Assembly (NCBI GenBank): GCA_964016885.1
Contig: OZ024742.1
Span: 137,826,001 to 137,890,000 of the forward strand
DNA: 64,000 nucleotides
DNA from: Eledone cirrhosa
Lineage: Eukaryota
Direction of reading: 5' to 3'
Part shown: positions 3,281 through 60,988 of the stretch, piece after piece
Position numbering within the stretch: the first letter of the stretch is position 1
Layout of the letters: the number at the start of each line of letters is the position of its first letter
Notes under the pieces: model-generated
Told to the model about the DNA's origin: nothing
Seen by the model: the letters and a program-made list of their open reading frames with translations, nothing else
Database searches by the model: none
Translations under genes and position numbers: made by a program

Positions 3281-3579
3281 GTAGATAAATCTACCAAGAG
3301 TTTACGGTAGTGTCCAATCCGTATGAAGAACTCAATGTATTCCGGATATCATGGAAAGAAGAGATGTAATGAAAAACCACTTTCGGTGAAAGATAAACGG
3401 TATACAGAGTCAAGATAAAATACATATATATACACATATATAAACACATATATACCCTAGAAACGATCGTTAAATAATGAACTTTTTTTGTTTAATATAA
3501 GGAATTGTTTATTCATTATTTGTTTAATATTTTATATATATATATATAGAAGGGGTTACACAACAGTTAGTTCACCATA

Positions 3580-3619
3580 CCGAGAACAATTGTTTCACCT
3601 TCGCGGATCTTCAGCTCGG
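3580..3619 (-). ncRNA. Minimal type-I hammerhead ribozyme (inverted copy of 4325-4364)
   Basis: Reverse complement of the motif at 4325-4364. Confidence 0.75.
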
Positions 3620-3644
3620 GATGTGTATGGTTATAGGAACATAA

Positions 3645-4135
3645 AGGCCCAGATCACCAGCAGCCCTAGGAGCAACACCCCACCAGGGTGCTCTTGCCAT
3701 AAGCCTGAAGCTTGCCCCCTTCAACAGCAATGCAACACACCAGCTCTAATCTATGAAGCTGTGGTCACTTCCAACCGACCAAACGAACCACAGGAGGTCA
3801 AATCCTATGTGGGCATGGCGGAGGGCCGATTCAAGGAGCGTTTCCTGAACCACCAGTCTACCTTCAGATACCCGGACACACGTTCATCCACGAAACTCGC
3901 GAGCCACGTATAGTCCTTCAAGGACTCAAGTATAGGCTACTCCATTCAATGGAAAGCCATCACTAAGTCCAAGCCATACGCAAGGGGAAATCCGACGTGT
4001 GGCTTATGTATTGACGAACGAATAACTATCCTAAAGAGATTACGCAATAGTGATTGCCTAAACACGAGAGGTGAATTTTTCACACGTTGTCCACACGTCA
4101 CCAAACATCTATTGCATAACTACAAGGCCCCGGAC
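3645..4135 (+). pseudogene. PLE C-terminal GIY-YIG endonuclease (Hydra-clade-like), with in-frame TAG
   Basis: CSC..CPL...C, IYEAVV...YVGMAEGRFKERFLNHQSTF, TKLASHV*(W)SFK..IQWK, CGLC, CLNTRGEFFTRCPH. Confidence 0.85.
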
Positions 4136-4324
4136 TTATTCTTTGCAATTTTATTTTTAATTTTTAATTTTATTTTTCAACCTAAAAACTTTCCGGACTT
4201 TCGCAGTTATCTCCCTTACACCTCCCACACGCAGTCTAGTATTGCCTGTCTGAAGTGAGTGACCGAGTTTCTGCGCATGCGCGTTCGTACGGTTGTCCTT
4301 CCTGTTCCTATAACCATACACATC

Positions 4325-4364
4325 CCGAGCTGAAGATCCGCGAAGGTGAAACAATTGTTCTCGG
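4325..4364 (+). ncRNA. Minimal type-I hammerhead ribozyme
   Basis: ccgag-CTGAAGA-t.cc.gcgaa.gg.t-GAAA-caattg(palindromic stem III)-TT-ctcgg; stem I extends (ccatac/gtatgg). Confidence 0.75.
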
Positions 4365-4482
4365 TATGGTGAACTAACTGTTGTGTAACCACTTCTACCT
4401 AACTCGTCCCTTCGACTGAGTGCTCTACCACTACGGATATTACCTTCCAGTGTTCCACCACTATATATATATATATAATAGA

Positions 4483-25961: not shown

Positions 25962-27583
25962 TTGGTAAAAGGAAAAGAAAATGCCAAATCACTCAACTAC
26001 TACGCGGATGCCTCATCGTCAAAAATCGGGAAAAGATACTACCACCATGATAGATGTAACAACTTCACCGCTTCAAGGGGACAGCAAGGTAATTTCCATT
26101 TTCTCAACTCTCGCTTCCACAATACACAACAAACCCACACCACACGATACAACCAACAACGTAGGCCACCTATACCAACACAATCCAACATGACACATAG
26201 AAACACACATCCATACTCGCAATACAGGAACGCCCCATTCAATCTACAACCACGAACCCAAACCACATTTTACAACAACAAGGAATATAACAAATACAGG
26301 AGACCACTTAACATCAGCAGACAACCCCTCTACCCCAACCATTTTTTAGACACAGCACACATATACAGGCAAACAAAATAACACAAGACAGGGAGGAGAA
26401 ACCGAGAGTAATAGAAATTATCAATCTAACTAGTGCAGAACCAACACCCAACCTTATCAACTTACTCTCCAAAGGTCTTAAATTCACACCGACCCCACTA
26501 CGTCCTAACTATTATGAAATGAAGGAAGACATCACAGACTTCTTTAGAAAGTTACGACTCAGTGAAGAACTATTCGACCAGTACAATGAGGATGAATCAT
26601 TAGCCAGAAATAGAAGCAATTACACCCCATCAAAAGGTAGAAATAAAATCCTGGACGAATTCTGTGAACACATCACAAACTTCCCTTACCAACACTTGCA
26701 CAGACAAAAACACAAGACAAACCTCAACAAGAAAGAATGGGAAGAATTAAATAGATTAAAAACCGACAGAAGCATTACGATTAAAGAGGCTGATAAAGGG
26801 AGTACAGTAGTCCTAATGGAGTCAGAATTCTATATCAACTTAGCGCTTTCCACTTTGGAAAACGGAACATACTACGAAAAGGCTGAACACTACAATCAAC
26901 AGAAAATTATGAAAAACCTAAAAACTCTGATCAACCAATACAAAGAAGGACTCACTAACAAGGAATTCATCTTCATCACAGACTTCACAAGTAAATCAAG
27001 CCTTTTCTACGGTATCCCTAAAGTACATAAAAGCGAATCAATAAGTAAGGCATGCAAGGAAGCCACAGACATAGTCATCAATGTCCCCTCACCCAATGAT
27101 CTCAAATTAAGACCTATAATAGCAGGCCCCGCTTGCGAAACCCACCGCCTTAGCAACTTCATTGATACCCTTCTCAAGCCTTTTCTCAAACACATCAAAA
27201 GCTATATAAGGGACGACCTAGATATGCTCAATCACCTCCCTAATATGCCCCTTTCTGAACAAACCCTACTAGTGACGTTCGATGTAGTCAACCTATACTC
27301 CAACATCCCCCACAACCTAGGAATAGAAGCTATCCAATTCTGGCTGGATAATTACCACAATGAACTCCCACAACGCATCGAAAAAGAATTCGTGACAGAG
27401 GGACTCAAATTTATCTTGGAGAACAATTATTTCGTTTTCAATAACAAACCCTACAGGCAGAAATCTGGGACCGTTATGGGAACGAAAGCAGCCCCCACTT
27501 ATGCCAACCTAGTCATGGGATAGCTGGAAATCACCCTCTACACTAAAGTACTAAACAAATTTGGAAACACTCTCCACTTACCA
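25962..27583 (+). pseudogene. Penelope-like reverse transcriptase (N-terminal two-thirds, Neptune-like)
   Basis: IINL..LLSKGLKFTPTP, FFRKLRL, IKEADKGSTVVLM, FYGIPKVHK, LRPIIAG, LVTFDVVNLYSNIPH, YRQKSGTVMGTKAAPTYANLVMG*; cut by (TA)n before the YxDD motif. Confidence 0.92.
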
Positions 27584-27689
<106 letters not shown>

Positions 27690-27837
27690 AGTGGGTGTAA
27701 CTAGGAGGTACTGCAGGTTCACCCGGGTGAGCACTCGATGTTTAGGTTCACTTCTGTGATGATGTGTAGAGCCATACAGAGTGTAAAATATCCAAAGGAT
27801 AAAAAGGACGATTGATTATTCCTTCATTGCATTTATT

Positions 27838-27929
27838 GATAAGTGACGCGCGTTTCGCCACTGATCAGCTCTAGGTTCGATCTATATCGATCCTACCCGA
27901 CTCAATAATCGGCAGTTCGACGGACCCTC
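27838..27929 (-). ncRNA. Hammerhead-like motif, inverted copy of 31511-31602
   Basis: gggt-CCGTCGA-long stem II-GAAA-cgcgcg-TC-actt. Confidence 0.55.
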
Positions 27930-27947
27930 TTAAAATGCTATAAGAAA

Positions 27948-29310
27948 ATGACAGTTAACTTCTTAGACGTCACCCTAGAATTAGACTCAGGCCTCTACCG
28001 TCCTTACCACAAACCTAATGAAAATCTTAGATACGTCAATAGACACTCCAACCATCCTAAGTGCATAATTAACTCTATAGTTAAAAGTGTCTCCAACAGA
28101 GTGTCCACACTGTCGGCCAACGAAAACATCTTCAAGCAGCACGCGGAATACTATGACTCCGCACTTATAAACGCTGGTTATACTGAGAAGATTTCTTACA
28201 TCGACCCTAATAGAACCGCAACACAGGTAAACATAGCAGGACCCTTAGAAACGAACTTAGAAGAAACCTCCACACATAGGACACAAAATAACCTTAGACG
28301 CCCCCTAGCCGGCAGCGCAGACAGCACCACACATAACTGTCTAGGAGATAAAGCCACACTCTCCAGCCCCGATAACAACTCCGACTATCGCACACGTTTG
28401 CGTACCAATAGAGACAAGGAACATAACGCCAATAGATTACCTGGAACCTATTTGAAACACACGCCTTACCAAAACACACACAAACTCACTAAACAACGCA
28501 TAAACCGAAGTAGACCTGTCACGTGGTATAACACCCCCTATTCTATATACGTCGCCACTAACATACCGGGAACCTTTTTCAGGGCCCTGGAACAATCTTT
28601 TCCACACACACACAAATACCACAAGCTCTTCAATAAACACACCGTAAAATTCTCTTTCTCCACAGCACCAAACCTAGGCCACATAATAGCACACAATAAT
28701 AGGGCAAAAATACAAAAAACATGGTTTTCCCCCAAACAAACCACCACCACAACCCAGAACGAAACCACACACACAACACAACACAACACAACAACACACA
28801 CCACACCAACACCCCACGACACCAACCGCCAACGCTGCACCGCACCGGTTACTCCCAAATGCAACTGCAAAAACGAGACGAATGCCCACTAAAGGGGAGT
28901 GCCTCGTTAAGAATATTGTTTACCGGTGCGATGTCACTGCCGGCAATAAGGAGTACTCATATATAGGTGCGACATCCACTACGTTTAAGGAGCGCTGGTA
29001 TAACCACAGAAGCTCCTTCAAACATAGATCGAAACGACCCCAAACAAAACTGGCCGATCTGATCTGGGACCTCAAGGACAGGAATATTGAACCCCGGATC
29101 TCGTGGTCAGTAAAAAGACGTGTGGCATACATCCCCAGTGACAGAAACCACTGCAGATTGTGCCTAGCTGAGGCGGGGGATATAATTACACTTGATACCG
29201 CCATAAACTATAGGTCGAACATAATTGTCAATTGCAGACACACTAGGATGCACACCTTTTCTGCACAAACTTTCGCGGGAAGACCACGCACTAACCATGA
29301 CCCACCATAA
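27948..29310 (+). pseudogene. PLE RT thumb + GIY-YIG endonuclease, frameshifted near 28880
   Basis: VNFLDVTL..YRPYHKPN..YVNRHSNHP; WYNTPYS; CNC..CP..GECLVKNIVYRCDV..YIGATSTTFKERWYNHRSSF; TKLADLIWDLK; CRLC; CRH. Confidence 0.9.
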
Positions 29311-29937
29311 TATTAACCACACCTGCCCCGTATCACCATCGCCCATCTCAACGAACTTTAATTCTAATCTAACTTCACTTTATCTTATTTCATTGCATTG
29401 AATTTAACCATATGTAAGCCCGTATTTTGTATATCATGCCGCATACATAACCCACACCAAAAATCACACTAACCATGGCACACCATATTAATAACCACCT
29501 ATACCCCGTTTAAACATCGCCCACCTCAATGAACTTATTGTATTGTACTCCATGTTACCATTTCTAAGCCCGCATTTGTATATCATGCCGCACACATCAC
29601 CATCACCACCACCAAAATTCACATCAACATACAAACCTCATAGTTGCAACATCGTATTAAATCGGTACCCTATCATACGTTCTACCTTGCAATCCACAAT
29701 GACAAGGGACCTTGTAAATACAATGTCGATCATATCACACCATCGCCACCACCACCACACCACACATCGTCATATGCATACCATACACGCCTACAACCTC
29801 ATCCACCCATGTTCCCTCTATCTACCCTAACCTACAACCCCAAGCTAAATTCGACCCTGTAACTGTACTGTCGCACGCACACACAACCACCGACACCACT
29901 AAATACATCCACATACTTCAACAATCATTATCATTAA

Positions 29938-30001
29938 CAATAAAGTACCAGTAATGCACTGGGTAATTGCTGGCCTTGTGCCTAAAGTAGAAACAATTAT
30001 C
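29938..30001 (+). mobile_element. SINE family A 3' fragment
   Basis: taaagtaccagtaatgcactgggtaattgctggccttgtgcc. Confidence 0.8.
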
Positions 30002-31510
30002 ATTAACATCATCAACACATATCATCCCTCGCTCCCAAATCGACTGTATTATATATCCCCCACCCCCGTCTGCCTACCATATAACACACTGTAACCTCTG
30101 ATCATGTAATCATCTTGTCGAACATATCACCCAAGCACCACCATCATCACCATGTCCACAACACACATCGCCGTACGTCCATAAACGCTTTTCCCCCGCT
30201 TTCCCTATGTCACCTTTTAACCGGTATTCGATCCGGTATATATATTCCCTCACAACTCCACCACCACCACCACAAAACACAACTCCATACTTCATCAACA
30301 CCGACAACACATACCTCCACTCCCCAACCAACAATAGTGTGTGTGTCTGTGTGTAAGTATTTTACCCATACGGGCGTTTTAAGTGTGCGTGCGTGTACGC
30401 AAAATTAGGTGTATGTGTGTGTGTATGGGAACACATGTGTATGCATATGTCTATGTGTGTGTATATATATATATCTGTATATATATATATATGAGTATGT
30501 GTATGCATATGTGTATGTGTGTGTATATATGTATGTGTATGTATGAGTGTGTATGTGTACGTCTACATGTATGTATATGGGTAAATCTGACTGTATGTGT
30601 AGGTGAACTCATATATGTGCATCTATGTTTATATGTGCGTGTATGTGTGTGTTGTCGGTACATGTGTGTGTGTATATATATATATATATATGTGTATATA
30701 TATGTGTGATTATACGTGTGTGCGATGTGTATGTGTATATCTTGCATACATGAGTGTGAGTTCATGTGCCCATACCCATATGTATGTATGTGTATGTATA
30801 TATATATGTAAAACACCTTCTACATTGCCTCTCACCTTCCCCCCATCTCTGTCGTTCGCCACCCCCACCGATACTCCCCCACTCTCCATATTCGTGTCCG
30901 CATGCGCGCATACACATACATGTGTGTACATATACATATGGCTGTGTGTGAGCGTATGCCGATATGTGTGGGTAAGGATGTGCGTATGTGTTTTATGTTG
31001 TGTGTGTTTATACAACAATATATGTGCACATATATACATATATGTGTGTGCGTATACGTATAAACAAGGTATCTGTCAGACGAAGAGCGTCTAACTATGT
31101 ATCTATGTAAGGACCTGAAGCCACCAATACATCCACCACACCACCACAAACTCCGCTACCATAGACAAAGGCACCACTACCACACCCCCACCCACACGCC
31201 AACCCGTCTATTGACAATCCACTAACCTCATACCACAGCCCATCCCACTAAATAACCGTAACCACCACCATATCATCACAACCACCCCCACATACTCTAC
31301 ACGCCAAGGCCAACCCACCACCACCACACCACAGCCCACCTCATCCACAGACCGTCACCAACATCTCACCATCACACCCACCCCCATATACACTACAGAC
31401 CTGTACATCTCCTTGATCCTGCCCACCAATCAAAACAACTCATTTTGTCAAACCCTTGAATATCTGACTTTACCACATAGCATGTATTTCATTTTCTTAT
31501 ACCATTTTAA

Positions 31511-31602
31511 GAGGAACCGTCGAGCTGCCGATTATTGAGTCGGGTAGGATCGATATAGATCGAACCTTGAGCTGATCAGTGGCGAAACGCGCGTCACCTA
31601 TC
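31511..31602 (+). ncRNA. Hammerhead-like motif with 60-nt stem II and variant core
   Basis: CCGTCGA (31517-23), stem II 31524-31583 (gctgccgatt/gatcagtggc), GAAA-cgcgcg-TC-acct, then aataaa. Confidence 0.6.
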
Positions 31603-31951
31603 AATAAATGCAATGAAGGAATAATCAATCGTCCTTTTTATCCTTTCTATATATATATATATATATATATAGAAAGGATAAAAAGGACGATTATTCCATC
31701 TCTCTAGTGGGTCCGGGTATGCATTTTACATTCATTTCATTTATTGATTTATTGATAATTTATCTGAGTGTCCCGAATCTTCCATATCGAACTTTTCGGT
31801 TATTTGGTTGATTGTAGACATATTCTACGTGTGACGGTATTTTAACGATAGTTATAGCTCTAATTTATTTGAATTATAGAGCCCTCTGCCGCTCATCTCG
31901 AATTTTGTTTATCGTGAACTCGTGCGCCGATTTTTCGATACTCGATTATTC

Positions 31952-58926: not shown

Positions 58927-58938
<12 letters not shown>

Positions 58939-59301
58939 ATGTATATATAATGTATTTTGCAATACACTTTATGCTTAATTAAAAGCATTTTGACCGTAAG
59001 CTATTGTTTTAAAGTAGTGACAAATTCACTCAATTTGATCTCACCAAACAGGGGAGATAAGCCGACAAGACTTGTTTCGCTTTGGTTGAAGCTTATCAAG
59101 GCCAACTACCCCACCTGTTTGCTGAGATCATTGATGTTATATTCTTATAGAAATCTAGTAAATAATCAGGAGCTGATTATGCAGAGCGGTTGTTGGTCAG
59201 GCAGAAATTAAAAATTATAATTGGAGCTCTGAAATAGCAATATATATATGGATGTATATATAATGTATTTTGCAATACACTTTATGCTTAATTAAAAGCA
59301 T
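58927..59301 (-). mobile_element. ~313-bp non-coding HHR unit with terminal direct redundancy (family C)
   Basis: Perfect ~60-bp direct repeat with period 313; homologous to 51259-51642. Confidence 0.75.
59060..59103 (-). ncRNA. Type-I hammerhead with U3-A8 core
   Basis: ggcc-TTGATAA-gctt.caacca.aagc-GAAA-caag.t.cttg-TC-ggct. Confidence 0.78.
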
Positions 59302-59583
59302 CACTATCAACATCACTTTTATTATTATTATTGTTGTTCTTGTTGTTAGTGGTGGTAGTCGACATGGTCGTAGGCGTAGTCATAATAAATAATACCCCTA
59401 AGCATTATTATTGTTCATTTAGCTTGGGTTGGAATTTATCAATAAAATTATTTTCTTTAATTTTTCTCTTGATTTCACTTGGGCTGTGTAGTTTGTAGAA
59501 TGGAAATATTATACAATATGTCGACTACCACCACTAACAACAACAATAACAATAATAATAATAAAAGTGATGCTGATAGTGAT
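59300..59583. repeat. 66-bp inverted repeat
   Basis: Arms 59300-59365 and 59518-59583. Confidence 0.85.
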
Positions 59584-60017
59584 GATTACTGAAGATTTTT
59601 TATAAAAACCCTAGAAACAGCTATTTTCATCATTTCTAAAAATAGCAAAACAATTAATGCTTTGGACAGGGTCAAATATAGGTCGTTAGACATGCTGAAC
59701 GAACCGTGATGCCTAAACCAATCAGCTTTGGTAATCTAGTGAAACCACACACCGATTGGTCGAAATACAGTTTGCGAAACTTAGAATTCTGTAGCCCCTT
59801 TTTACTGTATATATGGCACAAATTTTAGCCATCTCATTACAGTCGAAAATTGCAAACTTGTCTGTCACCACTGAATATGAATCTGAAGATTGCGAAATCA
59901 TGAAAGTACTTGTTTTATTAACATTTAATATTCTACCATACTATTTCATTATAATATTATAATTTTAAAGGATTGTAAATAAAACGAGTAAATCAGACAA
60001 AGTTGGAATTCCTTGTA

Positions 60018-60072
<55 letters not shown>

Positions 60073-60265
60073 GGAAAAAATGAAACGGAATTTCATTTCC
60101 CACTCTTAATACTTAGAGTGGGAAATGAAATTTCGTTTCATCTTTTTCCGTTTATCGTTTTCGGTGCACCCGGCCGATTAACCCACTCGATATGCAAATT
60201 GGGCCACTCAGCCGTTAATATGCATAAGGTAAGTATATACATTCAACAATCTGGCAGGAAGGTAT

Positions 60266-60308
60266 ACGTTGCTGACGATATCTAATAAGCTTGAAACTAG
60301 TACAGCGT
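60266..60308 (+). ncRNA. Minimal type-I hammerhead
   Basis: acgttg-CTGACGA-t.atct.aata.agct.t-GAAA-ctag-TA-cagcgt. Confidence 0.72.
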
Positions 60309-60689
60309 TCCTTTGTCAGTGTTGAACAAACGAGCAACGGTGGTTGCTGGACACTACGGCTTAATACGGGATGTTTGTTTACAAACACACCGAACATTAT
60401 AATAAATGTTCGGTGAATCCATACGTACGTATATATATATATATGTGCATGTATGTATATATATATACATACTACTGTACGTCTGTATACATATATGTAT
60501 GTACGTGTACATACTTATATTTAAGTAACAGCCGTACTAAGAGTGGGAAATGAAATTTCGTTTAATTTTTTCAGTTTATCGTTTTCGGTGCACCCCGCTG
60601 ATTAACCCACTCGATATCCAAATTGGGCTACTCAACCGTTAATATGCATAAGGTAAGTATATACGTTGAACAATCTGGCAGGAAGGTAT

Positions 60690-60732
60690 ACGTTGATGAC
60701 GATAGCTAATAAGCTTGAAACTACTACAGCGT
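60690..60732 (+). ncRNA. Second hammerhead copy (C3A mutated, stem II perfect)
   Basis: acgttg-ATGACGA-t.agct.aata.agct.t-GAAA-ctac-TA-cagcgt. Confidence 0.6.
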
Positions 60733-60935
60733 TCCTTTGTCAGTGTTGAACAAACGAGCAACGATGGTTGCTGGACACTACGGCTTAATACGGGATGTTT
60801 GTTTACAAACACACCAAGCATTATAATAAATGTTCGATGAATCCATACGTACATATACATATGTGTGCGTGTATGTATATATATATATACATACTACTGT
60901 ACGTCTGTATACATATATGTATGTACGTGTACATA

Positions 60936-60988
<53 letters not shown>

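What the first reader, a model, noticed from the sequence alone, without database searches (positions are those of the whole stretch)
60068..60940. Tandem 424-bp hammerhead units with complementary lesions
Seen: two head-to-tail non-coding units, each with an HHR 424 bp apart, preceded by a ~40-bp fold-back and flanked by (TA)n. Copy 1 has an intact core and ctag stem III; copy 2 has the perfect stem II (agct/agct), so the ancestral motif can be reconstructed. Cleavage at both sites would release a 424-nt monomer able to circularise, making this a second retrozyme-like family (inference).
Basis: partly seen in the sequence, partly recalled or inferred. Interest (0 to 1): 0.7.

Follow-up and report, generated by a model that had tools for sequence, protein, structure and literature searches.

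The report
Hammerhead retrozyme riding Hydra-type Penelope elements
This is one damaged copy of a very abundant non-coding jumping repeat that carries a predicted self-cutting RNA motif and lands in TA microsatellites with the footprint of Penelope-type retrotransposons; a few copies are fused back-to-back to Hydra-type Penelope elements, which likely points to the enzyme that copies it, possibly from an RNA circle.

Summary
The tandem 424-bp units and both hammerhead (HHR) motifs are real. They are one copy of a young non-coding family: 9,103 exact intact HHR cores genome-wide, a 422-nt unit, arrays of 1 to about 60 units, and a sister family of about 470 nt. No ancestor needs reconstructing, because most copies are intact. 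This locus is predicted dead: core C3 and the helix III palindrome are broken in copy 2, stem II in copy 1. The 'fold-back' occurs once and is a second, inverted insertion arm. Copies end at two fixed sites about 59 nt apart (the Penelope 'tail'); back-to-back arms pair the two sites in 35 of 37 cases. No 5' end lies at the cleavage site (0 of 166 arms), so the template is uncut or re-ligated RNA. No coding Penelope carries this unit. Seven direct junctions with a Hydra-clade Penelope suggest the mobiliser, though deletion could explain them. Circular RNA is inferred only; no RNA data were available. Verdict: new member of the animal non-LTR retrozymes. The scan reported this family before at another locus of this genome.

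The parts
60021..60066 (.). (TA)n target microsatellite, left half
   Evidence: 60021-60069, period 2; the last bases overlap the arm end
60067..60108 (-).
   Evidence: L001 1458-1499
60110..60534 (+). Unit 1, full length
60240..60327 (+). HHR copy 1 with extended stem I; core 60272-60302, predicted cleavage 60302|60303; stem II lesion at 60281
60535..60942 (+). Unit 2, ends at fixed end A (no tail)
60664..60751 (+). HHR copy 2; core C3>A (60696) and helix III G>C (60724); predicted inactive
60521..60579 (+). Tail segment between ends A and B (about 59 nt) at the unit junction; strongly conserved between the sister families
60943..60987 (.). (TA)n target microsatellite, right half

Best explanation
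The locus is a decayed copy of a non-coding, hammerhead-bearing tandem retroelement (a non-LTR retrozyme) that is likely copied into TA microsatellites by the reverse transcriptase-endonuclease of Hydra-clade Penelope-like elements, probably from a re-ligated circular monomer RNA. Shown from DNA: about 10^4 near-identical dispersed units, variable 5' truncation, two fixed 3' ends, head-to-head arms pairing one end of each kind, conserved and covarying RNA structure, no ORF. Inferred: read-through transcripts of copies with two or more HHRs fold as double hammerheads, cut to 422-nt monomers and are ligated to circles. A Penelope protein dimer would then cut both strands of (TA)n and prime at two internal sites through short TA microhomology. 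It would copy the same RNA from both DNA ends, passing the cleavage site repeatedly, and the two truncated cDNAs would join back-to-back. The window copy is such a two-arm product (42 nt ending at B plus about 2 units ending at A) whose HHRs later mutated.
For: Copy number and youth: (73 full units, mean 98.2% identity to the majority; youngest subfamily 0.5% divergence). Ends: (two-arm insertions with both ends canonical: A+B 23, B+B 2, A+A 0 in the position-ordered sample; A+B 12 of 12 in the best-hit sample; p=1e-8). This matches two internal RT starts and both-strand cleavage in a Penelope in vitro (PMC11167929) and the tail at one end only (PMC8557442, PMC3846280). One template per insertion: the two arms share rare variants 30 times per 9,675 sites against 118 per 644,011 for random arm pairs; adjacent units 40 per 20,785; shared rare changes A>G 8 vs T>C 1 (p=0.04). 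Cut linear monomer not used: 0 of 166 5' ends within 5 nt of the cleavage site, 210 read-throughs. Structure under selection: 7 of 113 predicted pairs change on both sides, including HHR stem I (GU 14, UG 8, UA 4 of 26). Mobiliser: family P in this window has the RWR, DKT and CxCx5C motifs of the Hydra clade, the same two-end rule (11 of 11 pairs by my reading), the same U.U closure of stem II, and 7 direct junctions with this repeat.
Against: No RNA evidence of expression, cleavage or circles. A ~60-unit array of the youngest subfamily with no shared private substitution could feed long linear templates. Four insertions are multi-site subfamily mosaics whose switch points, where read (L067, L086), are not at the cleavage site. 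Period-2 arrays L105 and L063 look like local duplication. No sequence similarity was found between the unit and the 30 family-W PLE loci tested, nor were unit and family-P matches seen to overlap. 2 of 7 family-P junctions and 1 of 2 scorable junctions with other families break the A+B rule, and 7 of 12 pattern hits were mere neighbours across TA or other DNA. The HHR has a U.U stem II closure and no Rfam match. 8 of 9 Xenopus dimer retrozymes did not cleave in vitro, and HHR cleavage was dispensable for PAc insertion in vitro.
Confidence: 0.62

Rival explanations
1. Same Penelope-mobilised non-autonomous element, but copied from uncut linear multi-unit transcripts of master arrays; the HHR is slow or protein-dependent and circles play no part in retrotransposition.
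For: Unprocessed RNA was the dominant substrate of PAc and HHR mutants still inserted; ~60-unit homogeneous array of the youngest subfamily; mosaic arms and local duplications.
Against: Subfamily-diagnostic changes are fixed across all units in 33 of 58 scorable insertions, and most of the other 25 differ at one site. Rare variants are shared between units and arms about 10-fold above background. Both suggest a one-unit bottleneck. Linear copying with 5' truncation alone can only shorten arrays (inference).
Confidence: 0.28
2. The unit is only the pseudo-LTR of an unseen coding Penelope, and the copies are its 5'-truncated ends.
For: All end features are those of PLEs; the genome holds very many PLE fragments (69,843 first-look candidates).
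Against: The unit closes on itself head-to-tail. 0 of 95 5' flanks had PLE coding sequence directly upstream in the same orientation. No related HHR family with a coding body emerged from the 200 listed variant-spacing hits, of which 68 loci were examined. The partner search was not exhaustive.
Confidence: 0.06
3. A satellite spreading by DNA-level duplication, with a fortuitous or relic HHR-like motif.
For: Some arrays were lengthened locally.
Against: Fixed 3' ends, random 5' truncation, inverted arms, TA targeting, a 12-nt target duplication at L011 and compensatory base changes all indicate RNA-templated insertion.
Confidence: 0.04

Closest known systems
Metazoan non-LTR retrozymes (Cervera and de la Pena 2020, PMC7229834; Li, Clavereau and Pollet 2026, 10.64898/2026.07.22.740005)
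   Same: Short non-coding tandem units, one type I HHR per unit with palindromic helix III, low GC (0.35-0.38), thousands of copies, dimers to large multimers, co-occurrence with PLEs.
   Different: The unit (422-476 nt) is slightly longer than the 170-400 nt reported there. The passages I read do not describe two fixed ends, head-to-head arms or junctions with a named PLE clade. Expression and circles are not shown here.
Endonuclease-bearing Penelope-like elements: PAc/Poseidon (PMC11167929) and Hydra clade (PMC8557442)
   Same: Two internal 3' ends bounding a tail, inverted 5'-truncated arm, tail on one arm only, HHR, (TA)n targets.
   Different: No ORF; the tail is about 59 nt rather than 30-40 (family P here has about 65-78); the ends lie 215 and 275 nt past the cleavage site; no homology to an autonomous pseudo-LTR was found.
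Non-autonomous Chlamys elements such as MRC1 (PMC8557442, passage)
   Same: Non-autonomous PLE derivatives with multicopy head-to-tail insertions.
   Different: Those generally resemble their autonomous partners at the 3' end, and Chlamys mostly lack HHRs; this family has an HHR and no detected partner homology.

Membership tests
Non-LTR retrozyme | Short tandem units, each with a type I HHR | tested here: met
   17 of 65 sampled insertions have two or more complete HHRs in one arm
Non-LTR retrozyme | No protein coding, no LTR organisation, low GC | tested here: met
   longest ATG ORF 73 aa; GC 0.35-0.38; arm maps. PBS/PPT were not searched separately.
Non-LTR retrozyme | Dispersed, mobile multi-copy family | tested here: met
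   9,103 cores; 30,146 tail motifs
Non-LTR retrozyme | Highly self-paired monomer RNA | tested here: met
   7 compensatory pairs; z -5.6 without the TA-rich part, but antisense z -4.2
Non-LTR retrozyme | Self-cleavage and accumulation as circular RNA | not testable with these tools
   no RNA holder listed; needs bench work
Type I hammerhead ribozyme | Conserved core CUGANGA, GAAA, NUH with three stems | tested here: met
   family majority and 37 of 42 tail-selected copies; helix III needs a dimer. Not met in window copy 2.
Type I hammerhead ribozyme | Canonical closing pair of stem II and a match to curated models | tested here: not met
   U.U closure in the sequence; no Rfam hammerhead hit. 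That R10.1-Y11.1 is usual is recalled.
PLE-mobilised element | Two 3' ends (tail), inverted 5'-truncated arm, AT-rich target | tested here: met
PLE-mobilised element | Sequence shared with an autonomous PLE pseudo-LTR | tested here: inconclusive
   none found in family-W or family-P loci; most PLE families of the genome were not examined
Autonomous PLE | RT and GIY-YIG ORF | tested here: not met
Hydra clade (for neighbour families P and W) | RWK-like motif, DKT, CxCx5C linker, C-terminal GIY-YIG, under 3 kb, (TA)n targets | tested here: met
   motifs against section 11 of PMC8557442; no tree was built; Pfam gave no hits

The most novel reading that the evidence does not exclude
A Hydra-clade Penelope protein dimer copies a hammerhead RNA circle, and sometimes copies two different RNAs (the retrozyme and its own mRNA) from the two ends of one break. 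The mixed back-to-back insertions would name the mobiliser of an animal retrozyme and argue against fold-back self-priming as the source of Penelope inverted ends.
Probability: 0.35. Interest if true: 0.68.

Novelty: new member of a known kind. Interest (0 to 1): 0.45.

Why it matters
That Penelope enzymes spread animal retrozymes through RNA circles is proposed in the papers read, but not shown there. This family is young, has about 10^4 intact ribozyme cores and two precisely mapped start sites, and has a candidate partner clade. It therefore gives a defined substrate-enzyme pair for an in vitro test. The locus itself is an ordinary decayed copy.

Tried and rejected
Rfam: no hit at gathering score; no hammerhead among 99 hits at E<=10. 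RNA runs: no RNA holder listed; three guessed-RNA runs matched only about 35 nt of the TA-rich part, and the one run that held the unit has no recorded type; no evidence either way. A splice donor upstream of the HHR was rejected because it is absent from the older subfamily and the sister family. Period-2 arrays as proof of dimer circles were rejected: edges diverge and the L063 breakpoint is not at the HHR. Partner by related HHR spacing gave only indel variants, the sister family and chance hits. Partner by homology to family-W loci: none. Pfam on three PLE proteins: no hits. Cleaved linear monomer as the main template: rejected for the 422-nt family (one 3' end near the site, L030); the sister family was not mapped for this. 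A planned search for a non-family continuation behind the predicted junction region was not run, so a partner sharing only part of the unit stays possible. Paper searches listed nothing on cephalopod retrozymes or mixed retrozyme-PLE insertions; only listings and the named passages were seen, and no supplements.

Full report
Observation. Tandem Repeats Finder gives 60110-60942, period 424, 93% matches. Each unit has a type I hammerhead layout: 6-bp stem I, CUGACGA, a 4-bp stem II with a 4-nt loop, GAAA, palindromic CUAG, and a UA cleavage site after 60302 and 60726. Copy 1 has a G>T that abolishes the predicted stem II hairpin (0.0 against -2.5 kcal/mol). Copy 2 has C3>A and a G>C that weakens the intermolecular helix III from -6.8 to -2.2 kcal/mol. 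C3 mutation abolished cleavage of a Penelope HHR (PMC11167929). In a double hammerhead each core acts on the other unit's site (established model, recalled; dimer folding described in PMC4209133 passages), so neither site is predicted to cut. Rfam found no hammerhead, and stem II closes with U.U.

Family. The window lies in a 3.0-Gb genome (G000). A 316-nt query had 1,454 candidates; the 40 scored were 97-98% identical apart from the window itself. A pattern for the intact core has 9,103 exact matches, control 0. A 25-nt motif near the unit start has 30,146 and includes a sister family of about 465-476 nt, 72-80% identical by BLAST. From 73 full units the majority unit is 422 nt with an intact HHR and mean identity 98.2%. 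Position numbers below (c) refer to it; cleavage is at c192|193. In loci chosen by the non-HHR motif, 37 of 42 HHRs were fully intact (three of these loci overlap, so a few may be counted twice). RNAalifold on 26 natural monomers predicted 113 pairs, 7 with changes on both sides, among them a stem I pair seen as GU 14, UG 8, UA 4. These sequences are related, so this reflects a few events.

Insertion anatomy. I mapped 97 loci: 61 from the first 100 core hits on contig C1 (selected for an intact core, not for ends) and 36 best hits. Four segmental duplicates were dropped, leaving 166 arms. 5' ends are scattered. 3' ends cluster at A (about c408) or B (c45 of the next unit), about 59 nt apart, nearly always followed by (TA)n. 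In the first set (65 insertions) 27 were single arms, 3 complex and 35 head-to-head pairs: A+B 23, B+B 2, A+A 0, and 10 with a non-canonical end. In the second set: 15 single, 4 complex, A+B 12, and 3 with a non-canonical end. The window copy is a B arm of 42 nt plus an A arm of about 2 units, so the 'fold-back' is an integration product. This is the Penelope tail: two internal RT starts, both strands cut, and a predicted dimer (PMC11167929, parts 1-2 of 4). The tail being present at one end only is already described (PMC8557442 and PMC3846280 passages).

Template. No 5' end fell in c188-198 (0 of 166; 4.3 expected if uniform, p=0.013), arms pass the cleavage site 210 times, and one 3' end lies at c195. 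The template is therefore uncut or re-ligated RNA. For a single monomer: the two arms share rare variants 30 times in 9,675 sites against 118 in 644,011 for random pairs (8 of the 30 come from one rearranged locus, L119). Adjacent units share 40 in 20,785 after dropping three locally amplified arrays. 33 of 58 scorable insertions are uniform at 13 diagnostic sites. Shared rare changes lean to A>G (8 against 1 T>C, p=0.04; eight complex loci dropped, a lead from earlier finding e1-8803865). Against: 25 of 58 have a discordant site, four of them multi-site mosaics by my reading; two period-2 arrays look locally duplicated; and an array of about 60 units near the end of contig C4 carries only the youngest subfamily's markers and could be a linear source. 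I put circle against linear at roughly 2:1.

Mobiliser. No coding PLE continues the unit in sense: 0 of 95 5' flanks of single-orientation match clusters (102 of 223 clusters). Two independent loci have PLE coding sequence starting within 32 nt of the 5' junction in the opposite orientation (L022, L266), against 0 of 99 3' flanks within 200 nt. L262 joins the unit directly to a PLE terminal repeat. The partner in L022 and L262 is family P, present in this window at 3524-4470, about 2.7 kb long, with 5,852 exact motif hits. It carries RWR, DKT and CxCx5C, as does family W at window 26-31 kb, matching the Hydra clade (PMC8557442 section 11). Family P has its own short and long ends, paired in 11 of 11 clean two-arm copies among 30 loci by my reading. 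Two targeted patterns gave 12 hits: 5 direct junctions (L328, L331-L334) and 7 neighbours separated by TA or other DNA. Of the 7 direct retrozyme-P junctions, 5 pair a short with a long end and 2 do not. L257 (another family) obeys the rule and L210 (family W) does not. Insertion next to an older PLE with microhomology-mediated deletion could produce such junctions, so they suggest co-integration but do not prove it.

Comparison and novelty. All sequence-level criteria of animal non-LTR retrozymes are met (PMC7229834 passages). Their PLE origin is argued in 10.64898/2026.07.22.740005 (parts 1-3 of 5), which sampled no mollusc class in the text read and saw cleavage in 1 of 9 dimers. PMC13282606 passages do not mention ribozymes. 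Searches listed no paper on mixed retrozyme-PLE insertions; no supplements were read, and those of the preprint and of PMC8557442 may bear on this. Earlier notes of this scan describe the same 422-nt family and the two-end rule; they are not independent support, and my reading was reached before I saw them.

Verdict. A real feature and a new member of a known kind; the locus itself is predicted inactive. The interest lies in a testable enzyme-substrate pair and in the mixed insertions.

Noticed in passing
window 3524-4470: Two-armed, 5'-truncated Hydra-type Penelope (family P) with HHRs at 3614(-) and 4330(+), short and long ends in (TA)n; candidate mobiliser.
   Followed up: yes
window 26312-31661: Hydra-type PLE remnants (family W and another RT fragment); a relative at G000:C3:151.6025-151.6051 Mb (L304) has an 861-aa open frame.
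   Followed up: partly
window 802(+), 25838(-), 32178(-)/34056(+), 34396(-), 58588(-)/58771(+): Further type I HHR-like motifs of unrelated families, several in inverted pairs.
   Followed up: no
window 58927-59301 and 59296-59587: Another repeat with 313-nt spacing and an adjacent inverted repeat, possibly a further retrozyme-like family.
   Followed up: no
G000:C4:375,754,000-375,793,000 (L171, L172, L339-L341): Array of about 60 or more units of the youngest subfamily, about 3 Mb from the contig end; possible master locus.
   Followed up: partly
L173-L190, L221-L270: Sister family of about 470 nt and intermediate subfamilies with the same two ends and a conserved HHR.
   Followed up: partly
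family-wide: Private substitutions show strand asymmetry, G>T 65 against C>A 22 on the sense strand; unexplained, and arm ends were not trimmed.
   Followed up: no
listing: A recurrent 8-nt deletion between the two AGCT repeats removes stem II in about 30 of the 100 listed short-spacing hits.
   Followed up: no
L257:3859-3905 and many loci: A very abundant short two-armed family whose tail, like those of families P and W, starts with an ACTC...GAGT-type hairpin right after the short end.
   Followed up: partly
L030:2124: Single copy whose 3' end lies 3 nt past the predicted cleavage site, followed by a short inverted repeat.
   Followed up: no
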